A stretch of DNA of 64,000 bases, from NCBI GenBank assembly GCA_963768655.1, contig CAVYIM010000009.1, positions 32,001-96,000 of the forward strand, in the 5' to 3' direction. This stretch comes from an uncultured Chloroflexia bacterium (GTDB lineage: Bacteria > Chloroflexota > Limnocylindria > Limnocylindrales > CSP1-4). Positions 8,838-25,753 of the stretch are shown here, piece after piece. Within the stretch, counting starts at the first letter, position 1, and every line of letters starts with the position of its first letter. A program made the translations under genes and the position numbers. Under the pieces are notes generated by a model, which was given only the letters and a program-made list of their open reading frames with translations, ran no database searches and was not told where the DNA came from.

Positions 8838-9008
8838 GCCGGCGGCGGGGCGGCCCTGGAACAATATGGTGGGGCGCTCCGGACACCGTCTGTGCCGAGC
8901 GTCCGAAGCCGGCGCAAGACCATTGGCCGGGCGGGGCTCGGCGGGCGCCAGGGACGCCGGTGCGGCGAGACGTCGTACCCTAGCGGCAACCGCAGGAGGT
9001 CCCTGAAG

Positions 9009-10028
9009 ATGACGCAGAAACCGGCCCTGGACAGCTCGCCCTACGTGGCCCCGGCCGCGAGATACGAGGCCATGCTCTATCGACGGTCCGGCCGGAGCGG
9101 GCTCAAGCTGCCCGTTCTCTCGCTCGGCTTCTGGCACAACTTCGGGGACGGGGCGCCGCTCAGCACGCAGCGGGCCATCGTCCGTCGCGCGTTCGATCTC
9201 GGCATCAGTCACTTCGACCTGGCCAACAACTACGGCCCGCCCTACGGCTCGGCCGAGGAGAACGCCGGGCGCATTCTCCGCTCCGACTTCGGGCGGTACC
9301 GGGACGAGCTGGTCATCTCGACCAAGGCCGGCTGGGACATGTGGCCGGGGCCGTACGGCGACCTGGGCTCGCGCAAGTACCTGCTGGCCAGCCTCGACCA
9401 GAGCCTGCGGCGGCTCGGGCTCGAATACGTCGACATCTTCTACTCGCACCGCCTCGACCCGGACTCGCCGCTCGAGGAGACGCTCGGCGCGCTCGATACG
9501 GCCGTGCGTCAGGGCAAGGCGCTGTACGCCGGCATTTCCTCGTACCCGCCGGCCGAGACGCGCCGGGCGGCGGCGATCCTCCGCGACCTGGGCACGCCGC
9601 TGCTCATCCACCAGCCGTCTTACTCGATGCTGAACCGCCGGATCGAGGACGGCTTGCTCGACGTCCTCGGCGAAGAACAGGTCGGCTGCATCCCGTTCTC
9701 GCCCCTGGCCCAGGGCCAGCTCACCAAGCGCTACCTCGACGGTGTCCCGGCCGGGTCGCGGGCGACGCACTCGCCGTTCCTCCATGTCGAGGAGATCGAG
9801 AAGAACCTGCCGCGCATTCGCGCCCTGAACGCGATCGCGGGGCGCCGCGGCCAGAGCCTGGCCCAGATGGCCCTGGCCTGGGTGCTGCGCGATCCGCGGG
9901 TGACCTCCGCGATCATCGGCGCCAGCTCGGTCGACCAGCTGGAGGACAACGTCCGGGCGCTCGAGAAGCTCGACTTCGCGCCGGAGGAGCTGGCCGAGAT
10001 CGACCGCTGCCTGGCCGGGGGCAAGTAG
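9009..10028 (+). CDS. Aldo/keto reductase (L-glyceraldehyde-3-phosphate reductase, YghZ/MgrA type)
   Basis: SLGFWHNFG, FDLANNYGPPYGSAE, ISTKAGWDMWPGPYG, DIFYSHR, IHQPSYSMLNR; SD AGGAGGT. Confidence 0.94.
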   Translation: MTQKPALDSSPYVAPAARYEAMLYRRSGRSGLKLPVLSLGFWHNFGDGAPLSTQRAIVRRAFDLGISHFDLANNYGPPYGSAEENAGRILRSDFGRYRDELVISTKAGWDMWPGPYGDLGSRKYLLASLDQSLRRLGLEYVDIFYSHRLDPDSPLEETLGALDTAVRQGKALYAGISSYPPAETRRAAAILRDLGTPLLIHQPSYSMLNRRIEDGLLDVLGEEQVGCIPFSPLAQGQLTKRYLDGVPAGSRATHSPFLHVEEIEKNLPRIRALNAIAGRRGQSLAQMALAWVLRDPRVTSAIIGASSVDQLEDNVRALEKLDFAPEELAEIDRCLAGGK

Positions 10029-10403: not shown

Positions 10404-10541
10404 TATGCTTAGTGCCTTCGTGAACGAATGGGCGCTCCGGTCTGCGCCCCGGTGATGCGCCGTCCGATCTCGATCCACTTCTCGCCCTGACCGGTCCCGC
10501 TGGACAAACGCGGGTGGGCCGTCAGGAGCCTTGCTCTCATG
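10404..10541 (+). promoter_or_regulatory. Putative promoter and structured 5' leader of the DEAD-box helicase
   Basis: -10-like TATGCT at 10404-10409; hairpin 10431-10461; CCTGAC (10486-10491) pairs with GTCAGG (10521-10526), overlapping SD AGGAG. Confidence 0.5.
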
Positions 10542-12238
10542 TCTTCATATCAACTCGGGCGTGCGCCCGAGCGCTCGGCGCCGCGCGCTCGGCCGGGGCC
10601 GGCAAACCAGTCGCCGGCGCCCCAGTCGCCGCCGGCCGCCCAGCCCCCTCGTTCGACCGGCTCGGCCTCGCGCCCGACCTTCTTCGAACGGTGGCCGCTC
10701 AGGGCTACACCGAACCGACTCCGGTCCAGGCCCAGTCGATCCCGATCGTGCTCGCCGGCCGCGACCTCCTTTCCAGCGCCCAGACGGGCACGGGCAAGAC
10801 CGCGGCGTTCGTGCTGCCGATCCTCCAGCTCCTCCATGCCAGCCGGGTCGCGCCCCGGCCCGTCTCGCCCGGCCGGGGCCTGCCGCGTGGCGCGACGGGT
10901 CAGCCGATCCGCTGCCTGGTGCTCACGCCCACGCGCGAGCTGGCGCTCCAGGTCGAGGAAAGCGTCCGAACCTACGGCGCCGGGCGGCCCATTCGCTCGA
11001 CCACCATCTACGGCGGCGTCGGGTTCCAGCCGCAGGTCAACGCCCTGCGCGGCGGCCCGGAGATCGTGGTCGCCACGCCCGGACGGCTCCTCGACCATGC
11101 CGGCCAGGGGACGATCGACCTCGGGTCGGTCGAGATCCTCGTCCTCGACGAGGCCGACCGGATGCTCGACATGGGCTTCATCCGCGACATCCGCAAGATC
11201 CTTGCCCTGCTGCCGGCGCGGCGCCAGAACCTGCTCTTCTCGGCTACCTTCTCGGACGAGATCCGAGAGCTGGCGGGCGGCCTGCTGCACGAGCCGGCCC
11301 AGGTCCAGATCGCGCGCCGAAACGCACCCATCGAGCTGGTTCGCCAGGTCGTCTACCCGGTCGACCGCGAGCGCAAGCGCGAGCTGCTGAGCTACCTCGT
11401 CCGCAGCGGGCGGATCGACCGGGCGCTCGTCTTCACTCGAACCAAGCACGGCGCCAACCGCCTGGCCGAGCAGCTCGGTCAGGACGGCATCCTCGCCGCG
11501 GCGATCCACGGCAACAAGAGCCAGAGCCAGCGCGTGCACGCCCTCGACGATTTCAAGGCCGGACGGGTCGCCATCCTGGTGGCGACCGAGATCGCGGCGC
11601 GCGGCCTCGACATCGACGGCCTGCCGCACGTCGTGAACTACGAGTTGCCGATGGTTGCCCAGGACTACGTCCACCGCATCGGGCGGACAGGACGCGCCGG
11701 CATGGAGGGCGACGCGGTGTCGCTGGTCTGCATCGACGAGAACCTGCTGCTCGGCGAGATCGAGGCGCTGCTCCGCGGCCCGATCAGGCGCGAGGTCGTC
11801 CCCGGCTTCGAAGTCGACCGATCGATCCGCCGCGAGCCGATCCGCCAGCGCTCCGGCGACCTCCGACCGAACGCCGGCCGACGCGCCCCGGCTCGCCAGG
11901 CGGCGTCGCCAACTCGTCCGGCGGCGGCGCCAGGCGGCTACCGGCCGCAGGCACCGGCCCGTCCCGCCACTCGGCTCGCGGCTCGTCCGGCCGCACGCGC
12001 GGCCGCTCCGGGCGGTTACCGCCGACCCGTGCCGGCTGACTTCCGTCAGCCCGCAAACAGCGCATCGTCGATCGGCTACATGCCGGCTCGCCGGCCGAAC
12101 GGCCACGCCCGCCCAACGCCGCTCGCCCGACCGGCCGAGCGCGAGGCGCCCCACCCGTCCCAGCGGCGCGAGCCGAGCGCCCCGCTAGCGGCTCTTCCCG
12201 GCGAGCGCATCGTCCGCCTCGGCAACCGCCCCGGCTGA
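10514..12238 (+). CDS. rhlE: DEAD-box RNA helicase (RhlE-like) with a long R/P-rich tail; start uncertain, possible 5' frameshift
   Basis: Q motif [50 protein letters not shown]. Confidence 0.92.
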
Positions 12239-12440: not shown

Positions 12441-12857
12441 TCACCGATTGGCCAGGCTAGCCAAGAACTCGGCGGGAGTCATGACCGGCACGACGTCCCG
12501 GAGAACAAGCAGGTGTGAGTCGCCAGACACCAACACGTCCGCAGCCGCGGCACGCGCAAGGTCGAGCAGATACTCGTCGTCCGGGTCAGCGCTGAGCGAC
12601 TCCCCGGCCGGCGGCGGGTCGTCGTGGATCGTTCCCTCATGGCCGATGAGCTCCATGTAGGCGGCGGCTTCGGCCGCGGTGACATAGGGGCGGAACTTGG
12701 GGCGCCCTAGGACCTCGCCAAGCTCGGCCAACAGGTTCGGCGAGACGACGAGCTCGAATGCGCCGGCGCGCAGCTCAAGCAGGAGCGCCGCGCTCGGACC
12801 GCCCGGACTTATCAGCGCCGAAACGAGGACGTTGGTGTCAAGAACCGCGCGAGGCAC
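12441..12857 (-). CDS. PIN-domain toxin
   Basis: AVLDTNVLVSALI, LLAELGEVL, DPDDEYLL, LVSGDSHLL; overlaps the upstream antitoxin. Confidence 0.92.
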   Translation of the reverse strand: MPRAVLDTNVLVSALISPGGPSAALLLELRAGAFELVVSPNLLAELGEVLGRPKFRPYVTAAEAAAYMELIGHEGTIHDDPPPAGESLSADPDDEYLLDLARAAAADVLVSGDSHLLVLRDVVPVMTPAEFLASLANR

Positions 12858-13086
12858 GCTTCTCGGTCCGGGCCGCGTGGGTTTCGTCGACCGCGAGACG
12901 CATCGCTTCGTCCTCGCCTAGACCGGAGCGGGCCCAGACGCTCGCGAGAACGTCGAAGCCGAGGTATGCGCGCAGCGCCTCCTCCACCACCTCCGAGTCG
13001 CGCTTCTCGGTGCGGGCTGCGCGAACTCGAGCTGCCCGCATCACGTCCGCATCGACATACAGGGTCACTTTCTTCTTCGTCGCCAT
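12838..13086 (-). CDS. RHH/CopG-type antitoxin
   Basis: MATKKKVTLYVDADVMRAARVRAARTEKRDSEVVEEALRAYLG (beta-helix-helix pattern), directly upstream of the PIN gene. Confidence 0.85.
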   Translation of the reverse strand: MATKKKVTLYVDADVMRAARVRAARTEKRDSEVVEEALRAYLGFDVLASVWARSGLGEDEAMRLAVDETHAARTEKRASRGS

Positions 13087-13089
13087 GGC

Positions 13090-13121
13090 GCCATCATACC
13101 GGCATGATGGCATAGCGGCAA
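13090..13121 (-). promoter_or_regulatory. Sigma70-like promoter with palindromic autoregulatory operator of TA module 1
   Basis: TTGCCG-17bp-TATGAT on the minus strand; perfect IR GCCATCAT-N6-ATGATGGC (13090-13111); ATG lies 6 nt after the -10. Confidence 0.7.
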
Positions 13122-13278
13122 GACGGGTCAGACCTGAAGCGCCGTTCATGGATGGCCGCGGCCAGGCCGACCGCGACCCAACTCGGCACGACGATCCGCC
13201 ACGTGAGAATCGCCGGCCCCAATCCTCTCGCCCCGACCACCTGCATGGTTTCGAACCTCGCGCCGAGCGCCGGCCCGG

Positions 13279-14382: not shown

Positions 14383-16371
14383 TTGACCGCCGCGCTCTCC
14401 GCCGAACGACTGCTCGAAGACCTCAACCCATCGCAACGCGAGGCCGTGACCACCACTTCGGGTCCGCTCGCGATAATCGCCGGCGCGGGCTCGGGCAAGA
14501 CGCGCGTCATCAGCCGGCGGGCGGCGTACGCCATCGAAACGAGCGCGGTTCCGCCGGATCAGATCCTGCTCGTGACGTTCACGGACAAGGCCGCGGGCGA
14601 GATGGTGGGGCGGATGACGGCGCTGGGCCATCGCGGCGTCATGGCCCGCACGTTCCACGCCGCGGCGCTCGCCCAGCTGCGGCACTTCTGGCCGGGCCGC
14701 CACGACGGCACGCCGCTGCCCGCGATCCTCGACTCGAAGCTGCGCCTGATCGTGCCGCTCATCGGCCGGCTGCCGGGCGGCTATCGCTTCACGCCGGCGA
14801 AAGACGTGGCCGACACGATCGAATGGGCGAAGGTGCGCCGCATCCGGCCCGGGCGCTGGGTCCAGGAAGGCGGCGATCGAGCCCCGATCCCGGCCGACCT
14901 GTTCGGCCGCGTCTACCGCGATTACGAGCGCTCGAAGGCAGACGCCGGCCTGCTCGATTTCGAAGACATGCTCGTCCAGACGGTCGAGCTTCTGGAGGCC
15001 GACGCCGAGGCGGCCGCGCTGGTTCGATCGCGTAAGCGCTGGTTCAGCGTCGACGAATACCAGGACACGAATCCGCTGTCCGAACGGCTCCTCGAGCTGT
15101 GGCTCGGCGAATCTCGCGATCTGGCGGTGGTCGGCGATCCGGACCAGACGATCTACTCCTTCACCGGTGCAACGCCGGAGTTCCTGCTCAGCTTCGCCGA
15201 GCGCCATCCCGGCGCGCGAACCGTCACGCTCGCGCAGAACTACCGCTCCAGCCCGCAGATCCTGGAGCTGGCCAACCGGATCGTCGCCGGCGGGCCGCGC
15301 GGCGCGCTGCGGGCGACCCGGGCCGACGGACCGCGGCCCGCCGTCCATCGCTTCGCGGATTCCGAGGCCGAGCTGCGCGAGATCGTCGCTTGGCGCCGCG
15401 CCGCTAGCGCCGCCGGAGTCGCGGCATCGGAGACGGCCGTCCTCGTGCGCGTCAACGCCCAGCTGCCGGCCATCGAGGACGCGCTGACGCGCGCCGGCAT
15501 CGCGTTCACCGTTCGCGGCCAGCGGTTCTTCGATCGGCGCGAGATCCGCGAGGCGGTGCGGCTCCTGAGCCGGGAGCGGCCGGCCGAGTCGGGCGGAGCG
15601 CTCGTCGCCGCCGTCGAGCGGCTGCTCGTGGAGCGGATGGGCCTGGACGACGTCGCCGCCGATGCCGGCTCCGAAGGCCGCGAGCGCGCCGCGTCGCTCG
15701 AACTGCTGCTCGGCATCCTGGAGGACCTCGCGGCCGCGGACCCGGCGCTCGGCATCGACGCCGTCCTCGCCGAGCTGGATCGCCGCGCGACGGCTGAGGC
15801 CGCCGACTCGGCGGACGGCGTGAACCTGCTGACCTACCACCGTGCCAAGGGCCTCGAATGGGATGCCGTCTACCTGCCGGCGCTCGACGAAGGCTTGCTG
15901 CCGATCCGCCAGGCGAAGGAGGAAGACGAGATCGCCGAGGAGCGCCGCCTGCTGTATGTCGGGATCACCCGCGCCCGCAGGTTCCTGGCGCTCTCGTCAT
16001 CGTCGCGCCGCCCGTCGCGGTTCCTCGCGGCCCTGGATCCGGCGAAGCCGAAGGCGCCGCGTTCGGCCGGCGCCGCCGGCCGAGGGTCGAGCCGCGCCCG
16101 CGTCCTGCCCGGCGCGCCGGTGGCAGAGCCGGCCGCCCCCGACGACGCGCTGCTCGAAGCACTCCGCCGCTGGCGCCGCGAGCGCGCATCGGCCGACGGC
16201 GTGCCGGCCTACGTCGTCGCCCACGACACCACCTTGGCAGAGATAGCCGACGTGCGCCCGCGCTCCCTGCCCGCGCTCCGCCGCGTCCGCGGCATGGGCC
16301 CTATGAAGCTGGAGCGTTACGGCCCGGAGATTCTGGCGGTCATCGACCGCGCCGGTCAGCCTCGGCCCTAG
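14383..16371 (+). CDS. uvrD2: ATP-dependent DNA helicase, UvrD2 type (UvrD/REP plus C-terminal HRDC)
   Basis: AGAGSGKT, VTFT, DEYQD, VGDPDQTIY, QNYRS, HRAKGLEW, EERRLLYVGITRA; HRDC LRRWRRERA..VPAYVV. Confidence 0.93.
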   Translation: MTAALSAERLLEDLNPSQREAVTTTSGPLAIIAGAGSGKTRVISRRAAYAIETSAVPPDQILLVTFTDKAAGEMVGRMTALGHRGVMARTFHAAALAQLRHFWPGRHDGTPLPAILDSKLRLIVPLIGRLPGGYRFTPAKDVADTIEWAKVRRIRPGRWVQEGGDRAPIPADLFGRVYRDYERSKADAGLLDFEDMLVQTVELLEADAEAAALVRSRKRWFSVDEYQDTNPLSERLLELWLGESRDLAVVGDPDQTIYSFTGATPEFLLSFAERHPGARTVTLAQNYRSSPQILELANRIVAGGPRGALRATRADGPRPAVHRFADSEAELREIVAWRRAASAAGVAASETAVLVRVNAQLPAIEDALTRAGIAFTVRGQRFFDRREIREAVRLLSRERPAESGGALVAAVERLLVERMGLDDVAADAGSEGRERAASLELLLGILEDLAAADPALGIDAVLAELDRRATAEAADSADGVNLLTYHRAKGLEWDAVYLPALDEGLLPIRQAKEEDEIAEERRLLYVGITRARRFLALSSSSRRPSRFLAALDPAKPKAPRSAGAAGRGSSRARVLPGAPVAEPAAPDDALLEALRRWRRERASADGVPAYVVAHDTTLAEIADVRPRSLPALRRVRGMGPMKLERYGPEILAVIDRAGQPRP

Positions 16372-17552: not shown

Positions 17553-18083
17553 TCAGGCGGTCCGGCGAAGTCGAGGCAGGATGTCCGCGACGATCTCCGG
17601 CGGGGGTCGGTGCGCGGCGAGTGCGGCGCCGGGCTCGTCGGGTTCGAGCGGCTCGAGCGTCTCGAGCTGGCTGGCCAGGAGCGCGGGGGGCATGTAGTGC
17701 CCCTGCCGGTGCTCCAGGCGATCGGCGATGACGTCCGGCCCGACGACAAGGTGAGCGAACCAGACCGAGGCGTGGCCGCGCCGCAGCAGGTCGCGGTAGG
17801 CGCGCCGCAGTGCCGAGCAAGTGACCAGCGCGTTCTCCCCGGCTCGCTCGCGCTCGCCGATCCACGCCGCGAGGGACTCCAGCCAGGGCCAGCGGTCCTC
17901 GTCGGTGAGCGGCGTGCCCGAGCGCATCTTCGCCACGTTGGCGAGCGAGTGGAAATCGTCCGCTTCCGCGGCCGGCCAGCCGAGCTCGTCGGCGAGCGCT
18001 CGCATGACGGTCGACTTGCCGCAGCCGGACACGCCCATGACGACGATCGTCGTGGTCGGCGAGGGCTGACCCGGGTCAGTCAT
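17553..18083 (-). CDS. gntK: Gluconokinase (GntK/IdnK type)
   Basis: VVMGVSGCGKST, ADDFH, KMRSGTPLTDEDRWPWL, CSALRRAYRD, HYMPPALLASQLETLE; start overlaps the larC stop. Confidence 0.95.
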   Translation of the reverse strand: MTDPGQPSPTTTIVVMGVSGCGKSTVMRALADELGWPAAEADDFHSLANVAKMRSGTPLTDEDRWPWLESLAAWIGERERAGENALVTCSALRRAYRDLLRRGHASVWFAHLVVGPDVIADRLEHRQGHYMPPALLASQLETLEPLEPDEPGAALAAHRPPPEIVADILPRLRRTA

Positions 18084-19293
18084 CGCGGCCACGAGCCAGC
18101 GCCGCGGCGCGCTCCAGGACGGTGCGGACCGGCAGCCCCAGTCGCTCGGCCGCGGCCGCCGCGTCGGCGTATTCCGCCTGCACCGTCACCGGCCGGCCGT
18201 CGAGCAGGCCGCGCTTGACGCGAACCGCGCAGCCATCCACCGAGACGACGACTTCGTCGCGGGGCAGCGCCCGGCGAGTGACCGGCCGAACCCGAACGCC
18301 GAGCGTGGTCGATTGAGTGAACAGCACCCGAGCGGCGGCGTCGACGACCTCCTCGCCGACCAGCGCCGTCACGACGTGCCCGGGCCGGCCCTTGCGCATG
18401 ACGACCGGCGTCAGCCAGGCGTCGACGGCCCCCGCGGCAACGAGTGCGTCGAGCACCGCCGGCCAGAGTCGCGGATCGAGGTCGTCGACGGTCGCCGCCA
18501 GCTCGAGCAGGTCGTCATTGCGCCACGGAACGCCGGCCGGCGCCAGGGCGGTGCCGAGCACGACCCTCAGGACGTTGGCACGCTCAGGCGGATCCGCGGA
18601 GCCGGCGCCGACGCCGGTGGAGTCGATGCGCATCGGCGCCAGCGCGCCCCACTCTTTGGCGAGGGTCGCGAGAAGCGCCGCCCCGGTGGGCGTGCACAGC
18701 TCCCCGTCGCCGCCCGCGACTACGGGCACGCCTCGCCCGGCGAGGATCGCCAGGACCGCCGGCACCGGGATTGGCAGCAGGCCGTGCGCCGTCTCCACGC
18801 TGCCGGAGCCCAGCGCGAGGGAGCCGACAACCACGCGCGCGTTCGGCTCGAGCAAGCCAAGTGAGTCCAGCGCCGCGGCGCAGCCGACAACGTCGGCCAG
18901 CGAGTCGAGCGCGCCGACTTCGTGCAGGTGGACCTGCGCCAGGTCCTCGCCGTGGACGGCGGCCTCCGCGGTGCCGAGCACTCGGAACACGTCCGTGGCA
19001 AAGGCGCCCACGGCCGGCGCAAGCTTGGCCGCGGCGGCGAGAGCCAGCACGTCGCCGACCGTGCGCCGCGCCGCCGTGTCGTGGACCACCACCTCCGCCT
19101 TCGTCGCCCTCAGCCCGTGGCGACGGACCTGCCGGGGTCGGATCTCGATCGGCTCGACGCCCAGCGCCGCGATAGCCGCAGCCACCGCCTCGAGGGGCGC
19201 TCCGGCGTCGAGCAGCGCGCCCAGCAGCATGTCGCCCGACGCGCCGGCCGAGGCATCGATCCACGCGCAACGTCCGGCTTGTGCCACTGGCAT
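18076..19293 (-). CDS. larC: Nickel-pincer cofactor nickel insertase LarC
   Basis: GASGDMLLGALLDAG, AEAAVHG, HLHEVGALDSLAD, GELCTPTGAALL, TVDDLDP, VMRKGRPG, STTLGVR, EYAD. Confidence 0.94.
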   Translation of the reverse strand: MPVAQAGRCAWIDASAGASGDMLLGALLDAGAPLEAVAAAIAALGVEPIEIRPRQVRRHGLRATKAEVVVHDTAARRTVGDVLALAAAAKLAPAVGAFATDVFRVLGTAEAAVHGEDLAQVHLHEVGALDSLADVVGCAAALDSLGLLEPNARVVVGSLALGSGSVETAHGLLPIPVPAVLAILAGRGVPVVAGGDGELCTPTGAALLATLAKEWGALAPMRIDSTGVGAGSADPPERANVLRVVLGTALAPAGVPWRNDDLLELAATVDDLDPRLWPAVLDALVAAGAVDAWLTPVVMRKGRPGHVVTALVGEEVVDAAARVLFTQSTTLGVRVRPVTRRALPRDEVVVSVDGCAVRVKRGLLDGRPVTVQAEYADAAAAAERLGLPVRTVLERAAALARGRDD

Positions 19294-19391
19294 CTCCTCG
19301 CGGATAGGGCAACACTATGGGCGACAGCCAGTCGAGTCTGACACAAGCTCGCCTATCCGGGCCAGCGCGCCGGAGAAATGGAAGGACCGCA

Positions 19392-20144
19392 GTGATCCGA
19401 ACCCTCGTCGCCCCCGAGCGAGAAGGCGACCTCATCGGACTCGCGCTGGCAGACCTCGTGGCGGGTGGATCGTTCGAGTCTCCCGGCCAGCTCGACACGG
19501 CAGTCGTCGTGCTGAGCGGCGTCGTCGACGTCGAGGCAGCCGGCGAGAAGCTGGGGTCGGCGGGCGGGCGATCGTCCGTCTTCGAGGGCCCGGGCCACAC
19601 CATCTACGCGCCGCCCGGCGCGACCCTGCGGCTCGTGGCCACGCGACCGGCTCAACTTGCCATCGCCACGGCTCCCGGCGGCGCGGGAGCCCCGTCGAAG
19701 GCACGCATCATCGGGCCGGGCGACCAGCGGATCGGCGAGGCCGGCAAAGGCAACTGGCGCCGCGACATCCGCACGATCCTCGGCCCCGAGCACGCCGCCA
19801 GCCGGCTTCTCCTCGGCGAGACGATCAACCCGCCCGGCAACTGGTCGTCGTATCCGCCGCACAAGCACGACCGCCAGGCGCCGCCCGAGGAGGTCCGGCT
19901 GCAGGAGGCTTACTTCTACAAGGTCGACCCGGCCGGCGGCTTCGGTGTCCAGATCCGGTACGACGACGCCGGCGCGGAAACGTTCATCGTTCGCGACGGC
20001 GACGTGGTCGCGATCCCGAGCGGATACCACCCGGTGATCGCCGCGCCCGGTTACTCGCTCTACTACCTGTGGGTCATGGCCGGCGACGGGCGCCAGATGG
20101 CCCCCTATTTCGACCCGGCCCACGCCTGGGTCCAGGAGTCATGA
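19392..20144 (+). CDS. iolB: IolB/KduI-family cupin isomerase (5-deoxy-glucuronate isomerase-like)
   Basis: GRSSVF, GNWSSYPPHKHD, EAYFY, IPSGYHPV, YYLWVMAG. Confidence 0.9.
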   Translation: MIRTLVAPEREGDLIGLALADLVAGGSFESPGQLDTAVVVLSGVVDVEAAGEKLGSAGGRSSVFEGPGHTIYAPPGATLRLVATRPAQLAIATAPGGAGAPSKARIIGPGDQRIGEAGKGNWRRDIRTILGPEHAASRLLLGETINPPGNWSSYPPHKHDRQAPPEEVRLQEAYFYKVDPAGGFGVQIRYDDAGAETFIVRDGDVVAIPSGYHPVIAAPGYSLYYLWVMAGDGRQMAPYFDPAHAWVQES

Positions 20145-20971
20145 CGATGGCGCGAGACAATGCGGGCAACGCGGGCAACGCGGGCACTTCGGGCGCAGCC
20201 GGTGTGGCCCTCTTCGATCTGACCGGCAAGGTGGCCGCGGTCATCGGTGGAGCCGGGGTCCTGGGCAGCTCCGTCTGCCACGGCTTCGGCCGGGCGGGCG
20301 CCACGGTTGCTGTGATGGACCGTTCGCGCGAGCGGGCGGACGAGCGGGTGGCCGCGCTCGAGGCCGAAGGCACCCGCGCCGCCGCCCTGGTGCTGGATGC
20401 CTCCGATCGGGCCTCCGTCGAGCGGGCCCGCGTGGATGTGGAGAAGCTTCTCGGGCCAGTCGACATCCTCGTAAACGCGGTCGGCATCAACAGCTCGACT
20501 CCGTTCTTCGAGCTGGGTCTGGACGAGTGGCACCGCGTTCTCGACACGAACCTGACGTCGGCCTTCATCGCCTGCCAGGTCTTCGGTCGGGCGATGGTCG
20601 ACCGCGGTCGGGGCGGGACGATCATCAACTTCTCCTCCACTTCCTCGGAGGTCCCGCTGTCCCGCGTCCTCACCTACTCCGTCTCGAAGGCGGGGATCAA
20701 CATCCTCACCCGCTATCTCGCCCGCGAGCTGGCGCCCCATCGGATCCGCGTCAACGCCATCGTGCCGGGGTTCTTCCCGGCCGAGCAGAACCGCAAGCTG
20801 CTCGACGAGGCCCGCACCGAGGCGATCCTCCGCCACACGCCGGCCGGCCGGCTGGGCGAGGCCGACGAGCTGGTCGGGACGATGATCTGGCTCGCCTCGG
20901 AGCGCGCCTCGGGCTTCGTGACCGGAGCCCTCGTTCGCGTCGACGGCGGCTTCAGCGCGATGACGATCTGA
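20141..20971 (+). CDS. SDR oxidoreductase, D-mannonate/fructuronate oxidoreductase-like
   Basis: GGAGVLG, DILVNAVG, YSVSK (YxxxK), NAIVPGFFPAEQNRKLL; ATGA overlap with the iolB stop. Confidence 0.88.
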   Translation: MTMARDNAGNAGNAGTSGAAGVALFDLTGKVAAVIGGAGVLGSSVCHGFGRAGATVAVMDRSRERADERVAALEAEGTRAAALVLDASDRASVERARVDVEKLLGPVDILVNAVGINSSTPFFELGLDEWHRVLDTNLTSAFIACQVFGRAMVDRGRGGTIINFSSTSSEVPLSRVLTYSVSKAGINILTRYLARELAPHRIRVNAIVPGFFPAEQNRKLLDEARTEAILRHTPAGRLGEADELVGTMIWLASERASGFVTGALVRVDGGFSAMTI

Positions 20972-20995
20972 GGCCGCGGCAGTCCGGTGCCAGGT

Positions 20996-21415
20996 CGTCA
21001 ACAGCTCGAATTCGTCAAGCCCGGAGAGGAAAGCCGCCGGCGTCCGGATCGGGAACTCGCCGGCCAGAGCGAGCAGGTGTCCGTCGCCGGAAACCAGGAC
21101 GGCGCGCTGGTCGGCCGCAAGAGAGAGCAGGTAGTCGTCACCCGGATCAACCGAGCGCACTGGCGGAGAGGCGTCGGGGTCCCTGGAGAGAAAGGCCGAA
21201 CGAGACAGCCAGGCCATGAACGCTTCGGCGTCGCTCGTGGGTATCAGGCGCTGAAGCTTCGGATACGCGAGCGCCCGGCCCAGCTCGGCGAGCAATGCGG
21301 GCGACACGATCAGCTCGAACCGACCCTGCTGCCAGGCCAGCAGCAGTCGGGCCGGGGCGCCCGTCCGCGACAGCAGAGCTGAGATCAGGACGTTGGCGTC
21401 GAGGACTGCGCGCAA
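20996..21415 (-). CDS. PIN-domain toxin (second paralog); no in-frame stop at the expected end, so the lower coordinate is approximate
   Basis: TTG 21415, then RAVLDANVLISALL, LLAELGRAL, DPGDDYLL, LVSGDGHLL, TPAAFL; the frame stays open to 20105. Confidence 0.82.
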
Positions 21416-21416
21416 C

Positions 21417-21647
21417 CTACGGCCGCGGGCTGCGAGTCTCGTGCTGAGCCTCAACGCCCAGCGCCAGGGCGACATCCGCCGGCAGGTCATTGGTCGCCCA
21501 GAGTCGATCGAGCAGATCCAGTCCCAGGTCGCGCCTGAGCGCCTCTTCGATGACCTCGCTGTCGCCCTTGCCGCTGCGGGCCGCGCGGACCTTTACCGCG
21601 CGCAGGACTTCGTCATCGACGGTCAGGGTAGTTCGGACTTTGGCCAT
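21417..21647 (-). CDS. RHH/CopG-type antitoxin (second paralog)
   Basis: MAKVRTTLTVDDEVLRAVKVRAARSGKGDSEVIEEALRRDLG, clearly similar to 12838..13086. Confidence 0.87.
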   Translation of the reverse strand: MAKVRTTLTVDDEVLRAVKVRAARSGKGDSEVIEEALRRDLGLDLLDRLWATNDLPADVALALGVEAQHETRSPRP

Positions 21648-21651
21648 ATCC

Positions 21652-21672
21652 GCATCATAGCATCAGCGCATC
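21652..21672 (-). promoter_or_regulatory. Extended -10 promoter and direct-repeat operator of TA module 2
   Basis: TG-c-TATGAT on the minus strand, 6 nt before ATG; GCATC repeated at 21652, 21660 and 21668. Confidence 0.55.
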
Positions 21673-21701
21673 TCGATGATCACCGGGCCGTCGGATCGGC
21701 G

Positions 21702-22511
21702 TTAGGGCCGACCGCGGGCGATGAGCGCGCCGATCGTGCCGGCACCGACTCCATCATCGATGCCGACGACCGCGACACCCGGCGCGCAGGACGAGAGCAT
21801 CGCCAGCAGCGCGCTCAGCCCGCCGAACGAGGCGCCGTAGCCGACGCTCGTCGGGCAGGCAATGACGGGCACTCGCGCCAGGCCGCCGACGACACTCGCC
21901 AGCGCGGCGTCCATGCCGGCGATGACGACGATCGCGTCGGCCCGCTCGATCTCCGGCTGCTCGCCGAGCAAGCGGTGGAGTCCGGCGACGCCCACGTCGC
22001 CGATCACGCGGACGCCGGCCCCGAGCAGCGAGGCGACGGTCTCGGCCTCCTCGGCGACGGGCAGGTCCGAGGTCCCGGCGGTGAGAATGAGCAGCCGGCC
22101 TCGAGCCGCCGGGACGGCGCGGGGGATCGCCACCAGGCCGGCTCGCTCGCGCCAGATCGTCTCGAGGCCGCGGGCTTCGGCGAGGGACCGGACCGCGTCG
22201 GCGTCATCTGCGGCGACGCGGGTCACGACGACGCTCGACTCGTCGTGCTCCAGTTGCGCCTCGACAATCGCCAGCAGCTGCTCGCGAGTCTTGCCCGGGG
22301 CGTAGACGAATTCCACGATGCCCTGGCGCAGGTTGCGGTGATGATCGACGCGGGCGAAGCCGAGGTCGCTGAAGGGCAGCCGGCGCAGCGACTCGAGCGC
22401 GGTCTCGGTCGGAACGCTGCCGTCGGCGACGCCGCGCAGCAGCTCCTCCAGGGCGGCGGAGTAGGAGGCTCCCAGCGCCGGTCTCCCTGCCGGCCCGTCG
22501 CCCTCAGGCAT
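21702..22511 (-). CDS. larB: Nickel-pincer cofactor biosynthesis carboxylase/hydrolase LarB
   Basis: FARVDHHRNLRQG, YAPGKT, TAGTSDLPVAEEA, DVGVAGLHRL, IACPTSVGYG, SCAPGVAVV; ATG overlaps the larE stop. Confidence 0.95.
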   Translation of the reverse strand: MPEGDGPAGRPALGASYSAALEELLRGVADGSVPTETALESLRRLPFSDLGFARVDHHRNLRQGIVEFVYAPGKTREQLLAIVEAQLEHDESSVVVTRVAADDADAVRSLAEARGLETIWRERAGLVAIPRAVPAARGRLLILTAGTSDLPVAEEAETVASLLGAGVRVIGDVGVAGLHRLLGEQPEIERADAIVVIAGMDAALASVVGGLARVPVIACPTSVGYGASFGGLSALLAMLSSCAPGVAVVGIDDGVGAGTIGALIARGRP

Positions 22512-23367
22512 TGGAGCTGTCTCCTGCGCCGGTTCCGGCATACGCATCCGAAGACCAGCTCTCGAACCCGAGATCGGCCAGGCGCGTCCGGATCTCGGCC
22601 GCCCGAAGATCCAGCCCGGCCAGATCCTCCGCCTCGACCTCCACGCGGGCATGGCTACCGAAGTCTCGAACGCGAACCTGGCGGAAGCCCATCGCCCGAA
22701 GCGCCAGCTCGGCCGCCTCGACGCGCCGCAGCCGGTCCGCCGTGATCATCTCGCCGAACGGGACCCGGCTCGCCAGGCACGCCGACGCCGGCCGGTTCCA
22801 ACCCTCGATGCCGATCGATCGGGCCAGCAGGCGAAGCTGCTCTTTGGTGATGCCCGCCTCGGCGAGGGGCGAGCGGACGCCCAGCTCGGCGCCGGCCGCC
22901 ATGCCGGGCCGGTCGAGCCGTTGCGTGTCCGAGGCGTTCGTCCCGTCGACGACCCAGGCGTAGCCCTCGGCCTTCGCGATCGCCGCGGCGGCGCCGTACA
23001 GCTCGAGCTTGCAGAAGTAGCAGCGGGAACGCGGGTTGCGGGCGTAGCGGGGGTCGTCCAGTTCCTTCGTCGGGATCGTCCGCCATCCGGTCCCGTATCG
23101 GGCCGCCTCTCCGGCGGCGGCCGCGGCGTCGGTCCGATCCCAGGCCGGCACGGCGGCCGATTCGGCGGTCAGCGCCAGGCAGCGCTCGCCAAGCAGCGGC
23201 GAGGCGACCGCGAGCAGGAAGCTCGAGTCGATCCCGCCGGAGAGCGCCAGCACGCAGGAGCCGAGTCCCTCGACGATCTCCAGCAGGCGGCCGAACCGCG
23301 CCAGGACGACCGGGTCGGCGGCGGCCGGCCCGGATTGCGCGCGCTCCAGCAGGTCGTGGTATGGCAT
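22504..23367 (-). CDS. larE: ATP-dependent sulfur transferase LarE
   Basis: PP-loop SGGIDS, RCYFCK, DGTNASD, RPG, SPLAEAG, SACLASRVPFG, QVRVR. Confidence 0.94.
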   Translation of the reverse strand: MPYHDLLERAQSGPAAADPVVLARFGRLLEIVEGLGSCVLALSGGIDSSFLLAVASPLLGERCLALTAESAAVPAWDRTDAAAAAGEAARYGTGWRTIPTKELDDPRYARNPRSRCYFCKLELYGAAAAIAKAEGYAWVVDGTNASDTQRLDRPGMAAGAELGVRSPLAEAGITKEQLRLLARSIGIEGWNRPASACLASRVPFGEMITADRLRRVEAAELALRAMGFRQVRVRDFGSHARVEVEAEDLAGLDLRAAEIRTRLADLGFESWSSDAYAGTGAGDSSNA

Positions 23368-23450
23368 CGGCGTGACGATACATCCCATCCGCCGGAGCCG
23401 CCCCGCCCGCCCGCGAGAGGCCCGATACCGGCACGTGTAGAGTTGTGCCG

Positions 23451-24839
23451 ATGCAACACGACAAGACGCCCCATCGCGCGCTCGAGCCCGAGGCGCTTGC
23501 CGATCCGCCCGTCCCGACCGCCCCTGCCGCGGCCGGCGGACCCGCACCGTCGCGCGCTTCCAGCCAGGAGCCGTTCGCGGAGTTCATGCGCGTCAATCTG
23601 CCTCGCTGGGCCCTGGTCCGGCACCACATGGACCCCACTGAAGTGACCGACATCGCCGCGACCGTCGCGGCCGCCCTCGATCCGCAACGCGAGGCGATCC
23701 GGCCCGGCTCGCGAGTCTGCCTGGCCGTCGGCAGCCGAGGCATCGATCGGATCGACCAGGTCGTTCGCGCCGCGGTGGCCTGGGTCCGCGCCGCCGGCGC
23801 CGAGGTCTTCGTCGTGCCGGCGATGGGCAGCCACGGCGGCGCCACGCCCGAGGGCCAGCTGGAGGTGCTCGCCTCCTACGGAATGACGCCCGAGTCGATC
23901 GGCTGCGAGATCCGCTCGAGCATGGAGACGGTCGAGCTGGGCGAGGTCCGGCCCGGCGTCCCGGTCTTCGTCGACCGCCTCGCCCTTGAAGGCGCCGACG
24001 CGATCGTCCCGATCAACCGTGTCAAGCCGCACACGGACTTCACCGGCGAGATCGAGAGCGGCCTGATGAAGATGATCGCGATCGGGCTGGGCAAGCAGAA
24101 GGGCGCCGACACCTTCCATCGCCAGGGCTTCGCCATCTTCCACGAGCTCATCCCGGCGGTCGCCGAGTTCACCCTCTCGAAGGTGAACATACCGTTCGGG
24201 CTGGCCCTGGTCGAGAACGGGTATGCCAGGCTGTGGCGGATCGAGGCGGTGCGACGCGACCGGATCTGGGATCGCGAGCGAGAGCTGCTGGTGATGGCCC
24301 GCGAGCGGATGGCCCGCCTGCCGCTGGACACCATCGACGTCCTGGTGCTCGACTTCATCGGCAAGGACATCAGCGGGCTGGGCATGGATTCCAACGTCGT
24401 CGGGCGCTACTACGCCGGGCCGACGGGCGCGGGTCCGAGCATCCAGCGGATCGTCGTCCGCGACCTGACCGGCGAGACCGAGGGCAATGCCGTCGGCATC
24501 GGCATGGCCGACGTGGTGCTGCGGCGCGCGGTCGAGAAGATGGACGCCCACAAGACGTACATGAACTGCATCACGGCCAAGACGCCCGAAGGGGCGCGGG
24601 TCGCGCTGACCGTGGACACGGACCGGGAGGCGCTCTCGATTGCCATTGCCAGCGCCATCGAGGTCGAGCCGCCCGAGGCGCGGATCGTCCGCATCCGTGA
24701 CACCAAGCACCTCGAGCTGCTCTACGTCAGCGAGCCGGCGCTCGCGGACGTGCTGGCAACCGGGCGCTGCGAGATCGTGGCGCCGCTCGAGGCGATCGAC
24801 TTCGGGGCCGACGGAATGTTCGCCGCGGCGGTGGATTAG
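23451..24839 (+). CDS. LarA-superfamily (DUF2088) nickel-pincer-dependent racemase/epimerase homolog
   Basis: AVGSRGI, VPAMGSHGGAT, INRVKPHTDF, ESGLMKMIAIGLGK, GKDISGLGMDSNV, GNAVGIG, TYMN; divergent from larE. Confidence 0.82.
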   Translation: MQHDKTPHRALEPEALADPPVPTAPAAAGGPAPSRASSQEPFAEFMRVNLPRWALVRHHMDPTEVTDIAATVAAALDPQREAIRPGSRVCLAVGSRGIDRIDQVVRAAVAWVRAAGAEVFVVPAMGSHGGATPEGQLEVLASYGMTPESIGCEIRSSMETVELGEVRPGVPVFVDRLALEGADAIVPINRVKPHTDFTGEIESGLMKMIAIGLGKQKGADTFHRQGFAIFHELIPAVAEFTLSKVNIPFGLALVENGYARLWRIEAVRRDRIWDRERELLVMARERMARLPLDTIDVLVLDFIGKDISGLGMDSNVVGRYYAGPTGAGPSIQRIVVRDLTGETEGNAVGIGMADVVLRRAVEKMDAHKTYMNCITAKTPEGARVALTVDTDREALSIAIASAIEVEPPEARIVRIRDTKHLELLYVSEPALADVLATGRCEIVAPLEAIDFGADGMFAAAVD

Positions 24840-24869: not shown

Positions 24870-24939
24870 GGCCCTCAGCGCCCGCCGGTACTCGCCGCCG
24901 GCGTGGCCCTCAGCCAGCCCGCCGGTACTCGCCGCCGGC
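24870..24939. repeat. Tandem duplication of the 3' end of the ArsR/DUF2087 gene
   Basis: GGCCCTCAGC(-/CA)GCCCGCCGGTACTCGCCGCCGGC at 24870-24902 and 24905-24939; the second copy contains the stop codon. Confidence 0.85.
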
Positions 24940-25479
24940 CCGGGTCATCAGGCCCGAGACAACCATGTAGCGCCGCAGAGCGGCCACGTCCTCGTGGTAC
25001 CGGCCGAGGCGCTCGTTTACCTCGCGCTCGGAGTACGGCCGGTCGTCGGCGAAGCAGTGCGCCGCGAGATAGCGCAGCACCGCCTGCCGCTTGCGCTCCT
25101 GGGCCGGTAGCGACACCAGCCGCCCGTCGCGAATGAAGGCGCGGAGCACCTTGGCGTCGTAGGCCGGCAACGACTCGCCGTCCGGGCCCGCCAGCTCGGC
25201 GCCGGCTTCGTCCGCCCGTTCGAGACCCGCCAGCTGCTTCGAGACCGCCGCCAGCCGATCGACACGAAGGGCGTACTCCACGTACGGGCGGCGAGGCGTC
25301 GCCTCGACGAGGCCAGCTGCCTCGAGGCGCTGGAGGTGGTGGACGACGGTCCCGGCCGAAAGCCCGCTCGCCGCCGCCAGCTCTTCGACCGCCATCGGAC
25401 GCCCGGCTAACAGCCCGACCAGCCGCAGACGCGAAGCATCGGCCAGGGCGCGGAGAGCTTCCAGTAGTTGCGGATCCAT
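24910..25479 (-). CDS. ArsR-family HTH fused to a DUF2087-type domain
   Basis: LRALADASRLRLVGLL..HHLQRLEAAGLV; KVLRAFIRDGRLVSLPAQERKR..YSEREVN..DVAALRRYMV. Confidence 0.88.
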   Translation of the reverse strand: MDPQLLEALRALADASRLRLVGLLAGRPMAVEELAAASGLSAGTVVHHLQRLEAAGLVEATPRRPYVEYALRVDRLAAVSKQLAGLERADEAGAELAGPDGESLPAYDAKVLRAFIRDGRLVSLPAQERKRQAVLRYLAAHCFADDRPYSEREVNERLGRYHEDVAALRRYMVVSGLMTRAGGEYRRAG

Positions 25480-25753
25480 GGCGTCAGGATAGCCACGATT
25501 TGATACATGCCAAATCGTCACCCCGGACAAGCTCGGCGATTCAGGCCCGCCCGGCGGCCTGCGTCGGCGGCCTGCGTCGTCGGCCGCCGGATCCACCTCG
25601 GCGTGCCGCGTTTGCGCGCGAATGCCTCACGCGAGGTGCGCCGCTCTTCTATCGTTCCGGAGAGTCCGCGATACGGCCATCCTGGGTCATGGCTGGTCCA
25701 TGGCCAAAAGGTTGGATAGCCGATCAGGTTCGCGGAGGACTAGGGTGCGCCGC

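What the first reader, a model, noticed from the sequence alone, without database searches (positions are those of the whole stretch)
17553..24839. Self-contained nickel-pincer-dependent sugar-acid pathway (larBCE + LarA homolog + IolB-like + SDR + gluconokinase)
Seen: complete NPN cofactor genes (larB, larE, larC) interleaved with gntK (overlapping the larC stop), an IolB-like cupin coupled to an SDR, and a divergent LarA-superfamily gene (GSRGI/AMGSHGG/KPHTDF type, unlike canonical lactate racemase). No other iol genes, uxaC or uxuA are in the window. Known: LarA homologs are NPN-dependent 2-hydroxy-acid racemases/epimerases and include a D-mannonate/D-gluconate 2-epimerase (GntE type); SDRs with GGxGVLG and PGFFxxxQNxxLL resemble the SDR-type fructuronate/mannonate oxidoreductase; IolB/KduI cupins isomerise uronate-like acids. 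Inference: hexuronate -> keto-aldonate (IolB-like replacing UxaC) -> D-mannonate (SDR) -> D-gluconate (NPN epimerase) -> 6-phosphogluconate (GntK), bypassing mannonate dehydratase and suggesting a substrate for a poorly characterised LarA subfamily.
Basis: partly seen in the sequence, partly recalled or inferred. Interest (0 to 1): 0.85.

Follow-up and report, generated by a model that had tools for sequence, protein, structure and literature searches.

The report
Rebuilt nickel-epimerase route for uronic acids
This soil-type bacterium keeps the genes for a nickel cofactor next to an untested lactate-racemase relative, an isomerase, a reductase and a kinase, which together likely send glucuronic acid into the pentose-phosphate pathway by a route known from Thermotoga but built from different parts, which would give two uncharacterised enzyme groups a testable job.

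Summary
All seven genes are real and intact. The LarA homolog is a group-22 member (NF052515, 499.7 vs cut-off 400), listed as 'unknown function' in 2020. It keeps the LarA fold and five cofactor/catalytic residues but lacks the GntE signature.

- The SDR and LarA22 co-occur in 24 of 26 LarA22 genomes (171 searched).
- The IolB-like gene and uxaC occupy the same slot and never co-occur.
- uxaE lies in the block in 12 of 54 loci, mostly between iolB and the SDR.
- One genome has mannonate dehydratase ManD after the same SDR, without LarA22.
- Three kinase types alternate, often beside gnd.
- A second group-22 subclade (Paenibacillus, Niallia) sits with uxaC and the SDR.

This genome (88.6% complete) shows no uxaC, uxuA, iolD, iolE, kdgK or eda.

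Corrections: it is not self-contained (no importer, regulator or gnd; four transcription units; an inserted PIN pair), and the route is known from Thermotoga. No activity was tested; epimerisation could occur at the 6-phospho or 5-keto level. The scan reported this system before on other DNA (e1-4980504, e1-1241759). Verdict: new variant of a known kind.

The parts
17553..18083 (-). gntK, GntK/IdnK-type gluconokinase (ATG 18083; alternative GTG 18092); start overlaps the larC stop
   Evidence: TIGR01313 169.9 vs 113.75; the only such gene in the genome
18076..19293 (-). larC, nickel insertase for the NPN cofactor (fused LarC1-LarC2)
   Evidence: PF01969 E 4e-117; TIGR00299 and NF052512 above cut-off
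19392..20144 (+). IolB/KduI-family cupin; predicted uronate isomerase in place of UxaC (GTG start with GGAAGGA upstream; alternative ATG 19317)
   Evidence: PF04962; TIGR04378 208.2 vs 205; own clade 100/99 apart from the other IolB-family rows; W227 aligns with the Trp of E. coli KduI where most other IolB-family rows have Asn
20141..20971 (+). SDR, predicted fructuronate reductase (D-mannonate oxidoreductase-like), start overlaps the cupin stop
   Evidence: best NCBIfam match NF006132, 264.9 vs 281; ortholog directly upstream of ManD in G064
20987..21415 (-). PIN-domain toxin of an inserted toxin-antitoxin pair; its frame has no stop until 20105, antisense over the SDR; not part of the pathway
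   Evidence: PF13470, TIGR00305; no PIN match in any of the 54 related loci
21417..21647 (-). 76-aa putative antitoxin upstream of the PIN gene
   Evidence: translation; not scanned against a family library
21702..22511 (-). larB, NPN carboxylase/hydrolase
   Evidence: NF033503 237.8 vs 175
22504..23367 (-). larE, NPN sulfur insertase
   Evidence: TIGR00268 246.3 vs 150
23451..24839 (+). LarA homolog of group 22 (462 aa); predicted D-mannonate/D-gluconate 2-epimerase; R96, H128, H194, K207, H223 match LarA R75, H108, H174, K184, H200; loop T195-D196
   Evidence: NF052515 499.7 vs 400; model pLDDT 97; Z 19-21 to LarA-family structures; residue columns of Desguin Dataset S2; conservation

Best explanation
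The block encodes the three NPN-cofactor enzymes and a group-22 LarA homolog, and likely forms a uronate-to-pentose-phosphate shunt: the IolB-like cupin is predicted to isomerise D-glucuronate to D-fructuronate, the SDR to reduce it to D-mannonate, the NPN-loaded LarA homolog to epimerise C2 to D-gluconate, and GntK to make 6-phosphogluconate. Gnd, encoded elsewhere, would then give ribulose-5-phosphate for the pentose-phosphate or phosphoketolase route. Shown: gene identities, fold, conserved residues, co-occurrence and gene swaps. Inferred: every substrate, NPN loading and the order of steps. Relatives that also carry uxaE would extend the route to galacturonate.
For: (a) SDR and LarA22 travel together: 26 of 171 genomes of the order have LarA22, 28 have the SDR ortholog, 24 have both; in the genus the same 14 of 16 have both. 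(b) Isomerase slot: in 54 loci the IolB-like gene matches in 21 and uxaC in 7, never in the same locus. Of the 14 genus genomes, 11 have the IolB-like gene beside the SDR and no uxaC; 2 have uxaC in the block and no IolB-family match; 1 has neither. None of the 6 LarA22 genomes with uxaC has an IolB-family match. (c) uxaE (PF16257) lies in the block in 12 of 54 loci, mostly between iolB and the SDR; UxaE interconverts tagaturonate and fructuronate (PMC6978723 passages). (d) In G064 the same SDR (66%) is directly upstream of D-mannonate dehydratase ManD (NF043051 693.6 vs 550) and LarA22 is not found. (e) Kinase slot: GntK-type in 9 loci, FGGY gluconokinase-like in 9, PfkB in 7; GntK never shares a locus with the other two; gnd in 12. 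The 4 uxaE genomes lack GntK and carry a PfkB next to gnd. (f) A separate group-22 subclade has uxaC, LarA22 and the same SDR type (52-56%), with FGGY kinase, gnd or larEBC, in Paenibacillus cellulositrophicus, Niallia taxi, L164, L182 and L186. (g) This genome shows no UxuA, ManD-like or other enolase-family dehydratase, KdgK or Eda match, but has gnd, phosphoketolase and acetate kinase. (h) IolD in 0 of 16 genus genomes. (i) Precedent: T. maritima gnd-uxaRED-gntEK (PMC3750489 passages); GntE activity (PMC7583248); KduI converts hexuronates in extracts (PMC3578941 section 17).
Against: No assay. The GntE loop (E-V/S) is absent, and so are equivalents of LarA D72 and K298 by Desguin's columns. 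Group 22 is mixed: neighbours elsewhere include PdxA, altronate dehydratase, 2-hydroxyacid dehydrogenases and IlvD, with up to 5 paralogs per genome. The SDR scores under the mannonate-oxidoreductase cut-off, and most of its top PDB matches are named gluconate dehydrogenases. This genome lacks the relatives' ABC binding protein and permeases, uxaE and GH67, so the substrate's entry is unexplained. larC was not found in 5 of 14 LarA22 genomes of the genus. The uxaE-type relatives also carry an unassigned enolase-family dehydratase, mostly with a KdgK-like kinase and Eda, so the bypass is not exclusive there. 9 of 26 LarA22 genomes have neither uxaC nor the linked cupin. G086 has uxaC-SDR with no LarA22, LarA or UxuA match. 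UxuA absence (0 of 26 vs 9 of 145) is weak. The genomes are kin, and the locus and genome samples overlap.
Confidence: 0.55

Rival explanations
1. Same route, but the kinase acts first: it makes 6-phosphomannonate, and the group-22 enzyme is a 6-phosphomannonate/6-phosphogluconate 2-epimerase, the gene-less activity described in Lactobacillus suebicus.
For: The activity pair was shown in extracts with no gene assigned (PMC6978723 passages). The active site differs from GntE, and this subclade has a conserved Lys (TAKT, K377) that could bind phosphate (inference). Three unrelated kinase folds fill the slot.
Against: The Bacillota subclade in the same cassette has TSTV with no Lys there. The window kinase passes the gluconokinase model. 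The same paper cites E. coli gluconokinase as unable to use mannonate. I did not test whether L. suebicus has a group-22 gene.
Confidence: 0.15
2. The epimerase acts before the reductase: fructuronate (5-keto-mannonate) is flipped to 5-keto-gluconate, and the SDR is a gluconate 5-dehydrogenase.
For: Most of the SDR's closest solved structures are named gluconate or hexonate dehydrogenases; NF006070 is its second-best model. The two 5-keto acids are C2 epimers (chemistry).
Against: NF006132 scores 64 bits higher. The SDR feeds ManD in G064. Four Bacillota loci (L020, L021, L037, L045; three named Symbiobacteriaceae) have LarA22 with an FGGY kinase (three also gnd) and no SDR within the fetched DNA.
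Confidence: 0.1
3. The module handles a different sugar acid (another hexonate pair, or the product of an amino-sugar or cyclitol pathway), and gntK is only a neighbour.
For: A third upstream block (SIS, ceramidase-N-like, Gfo, DegT aminotransferase, cupins) precedes SDR-LarA22 in 8 loci. Two loci have LarA22 beside xylose genes with no SDR. Group 22 contexts are diverse. No uronate importer is seen here.
Against: uxaC, uxaE, ManD, gluconokinase-type kinases and gnd all converge on fructuronate, mannonate and gluconate. Key motifs are nearly identical across all contexts of this subclade.
Confidence: 0.15
4. The block is a decaying remnant in this genome after loss of its importer, regulator and uxaE.
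For: The ABC binding protein and permeases, the block's LacI and uxaE seen in relatives are missing. A PIN pair is inserted. Some relatives lack the cofactor genes.
Against: All seven frames are intact, with dN/dS 0.09-0.26. The same reduced layout recurs in L001, L002, L013, L018 and L022.
Confidence: 0.05

Closest known systems
Thermotoga maritima hexuronate shunt gnd-uxaR-uxaE-uxaD-gntE-gntK (Rodionova 2012, seen only through PMC3750489 and PMC6978723; GntE2/LarAH20, PDB 4NAR)
   Same: Same predicted chemistry and gene logic: SDR reductase, NPN epimerase, gluconokinase, gnd; uxaE in relatives.
   Different: The epimerase is group 22 (14-16% identity to 4NAR, no E-V/S loop). An IolB-like cupin stands in for UxaC. 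The kinase is GntK-type here and PfkB or FGGY in relatives. The cofactor genes are inside the block.
LarA homolog group 22 (Desguin 2020, PMC7583248; NCBIfam NF052515)
   Same: Member above cut-off; same residue pattern. Table S1 already lists SDR 45%, FGGY kinase 25% and glucuronate isomerase 20% as neighbours.
   Different: Published as 'unknown function' and not among the 13 proteins tested. This work points to a substrate for two subclades only.
GntE1/GntE2/LarAH15 D-gluconate 2-epimerases (groups 18-20) and LarAH10
   Same: LarA fold, NPN ligands, two catalytic His; predicted reaction.
   Different: Signature residues absent. LarAH10 shows that gluconate epimerase activity can occur outside GntE (PMC11770544).
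IolB 5-deoxy-glucuronate isomerase and KduI
   Same: Cupin fold with the conserved H-x-H...E...H pattern; aldose-ketose isomerisation of a uronate-type acid.
   Different: Separate clade, no IolD or IolE in the genome, Trp at the position where KduI has Trp and most other IolB-family rows have Asn. It alternates with UxaC, whereas E. coli KduI only backs UxaC up.
Lactobacillus suebicus mannonate kinase / 6-phosphomannonate 2-epimerase route (PMC6978723)
   Same: Mannonate to 6-phosphogluconate without dehydration, feeding phosphoketolase.
   Different: The genes are unassigned there, and the order of kinase and epimerase is reversed relative to my best reading.

Membership tests
LarA superfamily (NPN-dependent) | LarA two-domain fold | tested here: met
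   Model pLDDT 97; top 12 entries are all LarA-family, Z 19.1-21.3, rmsd 3.6-5.0, 305-332 aligned; next Z 6.8
LarA superfamily (NPN-dependent) | NPN ligands R75, K184, H200 and catalytic H108, H174 | tested here: met
   R96, K207, H223, H128, H194 by Desguin Dataset S2 columns for group 22; invariant or at least 90% conserved in 144 sequences. Mapping is by motif, not by structural superposition.
LarA superfamily (NPN-dependent) | Catalytic D72 and K298 of LarA | tested here: not met
   Val at both columns, as non-conserved as in the group-22 rows of Dataset S2; an invariant Lys (K305) and Asp (D313) nearby may substitute (inference)
LarA superfamily (NPN-dependent) | Binds NPN and inverts C2 of a 2-hydroxy acid | not testable with these tools
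   Needs an assay; larB, larC and larE are adjacent, and tblastn and PF09861 found no second LarA homolog in the genome
LarAH group 22 (NF052515) | Score above the curated cut-off | tested here: met
   499.7 vs 400
GntE gluconate 2-epimerases (groups 18-20) | E-V/S loop after the second catalytic His | tested here: not met
   T195-D196
GntE gluconate 2-epimerases (groups 18-20) | Sequence membership in the GntE branch | tested here: not met
   No GntE model among the 2 NCBIfam matches at E<=0.001; phmmer E 0.021 to 4NAR; 14-16% structural identity
GntE gluconate 2-epimerases (groups 18-20) | Mannonate/gluconate epimerase activity | not testable with these tools
   Predicted from context only
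IolB (inositol pathway) | TIGR04378 above cut-off | tested here: met
   208.2 vs 205, marginal; the IolB-family comparison L081 scores 302 and the KduI-like paralog 221
IolB (inositol pathway) | Occurs with IolD and IolE | tested here: not met
   No IolD above cut-off and no IolE in this genome; IolD 0 of 16 in the genus vs 62 of 171 in the order
SDR-type D-mannonate oxidoreductase (NF006132) | Score above cut-off | tested here: not met
   264.9 vs 281, best of 228 families; a sister subfamily
SDR-type D-mannonate oxidoreductase (NF006132) | Fructuronate reductase activity | not testable with these tools
   Context with uxaC, uxaE and ManD
GntK/IdnK gluconokinase (TIGR01313) | Score above cut-off | tested here: met
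   169.9 vs 113.75
Thermotoga-type uronate shunt | Reductase, NPN epimerase gene, gluconokinase and gnd present | tested here: met
   First three in the block; gnd on contig C4 and beside gntK in relatives
Thermotoga-type uronate shunt | UxaC uronate isomerase and UxaE | tested here: not met
   Neither found in this genome, 88.6% complete; uxaE is present in 12 related loci

The most novel reading that the evidence does not exclude
The group-22 enzyme, which lacks the GntE loop and the LarA D72/K298 residues, is the unassigned 6-phosphomannonate 2-epimerase. It would be a nickel-pincer enzyme acting on a phosphorylated sugar acid, working with a dedicated IolB-fold uronate isomerase and a mannonate kinase recruited from three folds.
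Probability: 0.15. Interest if true: 0.75.

Novelty: new variant of a known kind. Interest (0 to 1): 0.5.

Why it matters
Group 22 is a large, untested branch of the nickel-pincer enzymes: 78 of 351 genomes sampled from one Bacillota phylum carry it, and it is only 14-18% identical to solved LarA-family structures. A substrate for one subclade would show how a remodelled active site reaches the GntE reaction, and would open the rest of the group. The cupin would be a dedicated uronate isomerase of the IolB fold, now annotated as an inositol enzyme. For peat and soil Limnocylindrales it would explain uronic-acid use in genomes that seem to lack uxaC and uxuA. Cultured carriers of the sister cassette (Paenibacillus cellulositrophicus, Niallia taxi) make the epimerase step testable now. 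The pathway itself is not new.

Tried and rejected
- Inositol role for the cupin: rejected.
- GntE membership: rejected.
- Profile search of PDB sequences with the group-22 alignment gave only a chance hit, so residue mapping rests on Desguin's columns.
- Promoter/terminator and repeat scans gave nothing above chance and no sign of inversion ends.
- Sequencing runs: no RNA holder was listed; this is no evidence either way.
- A canonical LarA or GntE as substitute in the four SDR-only genomes: none among 12 PF09861 hits. PF09861 also misses the window protein in that search, so it is blind to group 22.
- The AKR at 8892-10028 as an NPN user (NphT, PMC13524815): it matches the canonical L-glyceraldehyde 3-phosphate reductase model (459.7 vs 448), so rejected; the His/Lys motif was not checked.
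- GH67 as glucuronate source: not found; three GH2 matches were not characterised.
- Literature: searches found no paper assigning a function to group 22 or an IolB replacing UxaC. The library lacks most subscription papers, Rodionova 2012 was not held, and Fig. 2 of PMC11770544, which colours predicted functions on the LarA tree, could not be seen and may bear on group 22.
- My gene calls in related loci came from a simple codon model, so cluster counts can miss genes that tblastn finds.
- Six of 72 loci failed motif extraction and are not in the group-22 tree.

Full report
Observation. Each is single-copy in the genome apart from distant SDRs. All are under purifying selection, dN/dS 0.09-0.26 in 21 of 21 comparisons with three related loci. 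The layout is larC-gntK (-), cupin-SDR (+), larE-larB (-), larA (+), with a PIN toxin/antitoxin pair between the SDR and larB that none of 54 related loci has. The closest relatives (up to 94% identity) are Chloroflexota MAGs, many named Limnocylindrales, so the window most likely comes from that order (inference).

The LarA homolog. Desguin 2020 (PMC7583248; I read parts 1-3 of 6, supplementary file 2 and the 20 group-22 rows of Dataset S2) lists group 22 as 'unknown function', with SDR (45%), IlvD/Edd (30%), FGGY kinase (25%) and glucuronate isomerase (20%) as neighbours; no member was among the 13 proteins tested. The 2024 follow-up (PMC11770544, parts 1-3 of 6) does not mention group 22 in what I read, and its tree figure was not visible. 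A model from a 144-sequence alignment has pLDDT 97 and matches LarA-family structures at Z 19-21, at 14-18% identity; the next fold scores 6.8. By the paper's residue columns, R96, H128, H194, K207 and H223 correspond to LarA R75, H108, H174, K184 and H200. D72 and K298 have no equivalent at those columns, and the loop is T-D, not the E-V/S of GntE. It is therefore a group-22 member and not a GntE member.

This genome. It is 88.6% complete. Family searches found no UxaC, UxuA, UxaE, IolE, GH67, or IolD above cut-off. tblastn with proteins from related loci found no ManD-like or other enolase-family dehydratase, KdgK-like PfkB, Eda, or the relatives' ABC binding protein and permeases; it did find phosphoketolase, acetate kinase and gnd. 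Mannonate would thus have no dehydration exit, while 6-phosphogluconate has one. The importer and uronate source are unexplained.

Gene swaps in relatives. (1) In 171 genomes of the order, 26 have LarA22, 28 have the SDR ortholog and 24 have both (about 4 expected if independent; kin inflate this). In the genus the same 14 of 16 have both. (2) Isomerase slot: among 54 loci the cupin matches in 21 and uxaC in 7, never together. Of the 14 genus carriers, 11 have the cupin next to the SDR and no uxaC, 2 have uxaC in the block and no IolB-family gene, and 1 has neither. All 6 LarA22 genomes with uxaC lack an IolB-family match. (3) uxaE occurs in 12 loci, mostly between cupin and SDR, and in 4 of 171 genomes, all of the cupin type. 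(4) In G064 the SDR ortholog is followed by ManD (693.6 vs 550) and LarA22 is not found. (5) The kinase is GntK-type (9 loci), FGGY (9) or PfkB (7); GntK never shares a locus with the other two, and gnd is in 12 loci. The uxaE genomes lack GntK and have PfkB beside gnd. (6) A second, separately supported group-22 subclade (SH-aLRT 98) carries the same SDR type, with uxaC and FGGY kinase, gnd or larEBC, in L164, L182, L186, Paenibacillus cellulositrophicus and Niallia taxi. The locus set and genome set overlap in part, so (1)-(3) are not independent samples.

The cupin. Nineteen SDR-linked cupins form one clade (100/99, branch 1.05) apart from 17 other IolB-family proteins of the order, several from loci with iolD, and from 3 in a KduI-like context. 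IolD is found in 0 of 16 genus genomes against 62 of 171 in the order. The clade keeps the H-x-H...E...H pattern and has Trp227 in 19 of 19, where 11 of 12 comparison proteins have Asn. The KduI-like paralogs and E. coli KduI have Trp there. KduI overexpression speeds hexuronate conversion in E. coli extracts (PMC3578941, abstract and section 17). A dedicated uronate isomerase is the likely role (about 0.75).

Results against. Group 22 is not one function: distant members sit by altronate dehydratase, PdxA, 2-hydroxyacid dehydrogenases, IlvD or pectate lyase, and 4 of 40 sampled Bacillota loci have the close SDR type. Nine of 26 LarA22 genomes have neither uxaC nor the linked cupin; six of these have a DegT/Gfo/cupin block upstream instead. 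larC was not found in 5 of 14 genus carriers. The uxaE-type relatives also hold an unassigned enolase-family dehydratase, mostly with a second PfkB and Eda, so they may have two exits. G086 has uxaC-SDR with no LarA22, LarA or UxuA match. UxuA is absent from 26 of 26 carriers but present in only 9 of 145 others, which is weak.

Mechanism. Most likely (0.55): glucuronate -> fructuronate (cupin) -> D-mannonate (SDR) -> D-gluconate (NPN-dependent hydride transfer at C2) -> 6-phosphogluconate (GntK) -> Gnd -> pentose-phosphate or phosphoketolase route. The reducing equivalent spent by the SDR would be recovered at Gnd, as argued for L. suebicus (PMC6978723 passages). All substrates are inferred. 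Rivals: epimerisation at the 6-phosphate level (0.15), at the 5-keto level (0.10), another sugar acid (0.15), a decaying remnant (0.05).

Known versus new. The route matches T. maritima gnd-uxaRED-gntEK (PMC3750489 passages; the 2012 paper was not held), and GntE activity is established. New are the parts: a group-22 epimerase without the GntE signature, an IolB-fold isomerase in the UxaC slot, and in relatives a PfkB in the kinase slot. Eight literature searches found no such assignment. PMC12611868 (part 1 of 5), PMC13524815 (parts 1-2 of 10) and PMC5788505 (passages) concern other NPN enzymes or the Haemophilus fructuronate-to-mannonate step. Earlier notes of this scan reached a similar reading on other genomes (e1-4980504, e1-1241759); I consulted them after forming mine. 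Verdict: real, new variant of a known kind, interest 0.5.

Noticed in passing
window 20987-21647 (-): PIN toxin/antitoxin pair inserted between the SDR and larB; the PIN frame has no stop until 20105, running antisense over the SDR. A second PIN pair (47% identity) lies at 12441-13149.
   Followed up: partly
L066-L068 (G041, G012, G008): A second IolB-family clade beside GH88, an FAA hydrolase, an SDR, eda and a PfkB kinase. It passes the IolB model but looks like a KduI/KduD module for unsaturated uronates.
   Followed up: partly
L034, L039, L060-L062, L069, L071-L075: Conserved SIS - ceramidase-N-like - Gfo - DegT - glucosamine-isomerase-like - cupin block next to SDR(-LarA22)-EamA; substrate unknown, possibly an amino sugar; present without LarA22 in L060-L062.
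   Followed up: partly
L224-L228: Larger form of the locus: gnd, PfkB, (second PfkB, eda), unassigned enolase-family dehydratase, larC, LacI, ABC importer, cupin, uxaE, SDR, larB, larE, LarA22. The gnd-linked PfkB is a candidate gluconate or mannonate kinase.
   Followed up: partly
L010, L011, L012, L028, L030 and others (15 of 54 loci): An APH-family phosphotransferase gene lies just downstream of LarA22 in most of these loci; role unknown; absent from this genome.
   Followed up: no
L051, L160, L184, L192, L208: Distant group-22 genes next to PdxA, three also with a DUF1537-type (PF07005) kinase, suggesting a four-carbon acid (threonate/erythronate) epimerase.
   Followed up: no
L100 (Haloferax gibbonsii plasmid) and other haloarchaeal plasmids: Group-22-like gene between a Gfo oxidoreductase, pectate lyase and GH28, suggesting an archaeal galacturonate route.
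   Followed up: no
L065, L237, L238: larB/larE/larC-type genes next to a DUF362 protein and a polyferredoxin, a possible further user of the nickel-pincer cofactor.
   Followed up: no
L058 (G086): uxaC-SDR beside phosphoketolase and acetate kinase, with no LarA22, LarA or UxuA match in the genome; the step after mannonate is unaccounted for.
   Followed up: partly
window 8892-10028 (+), 10514-12238 (+), 14383-16371 (+), 24910-25596 (-): Flanking genes: L-glyceraldehyde 3-phosphate reductase-type AKR, RhlE-like helicase, UvrD-HRDC helicase, ArsR-DUF2087 regulator; the last also follows larA in several close relatives.
   Followed up: partly
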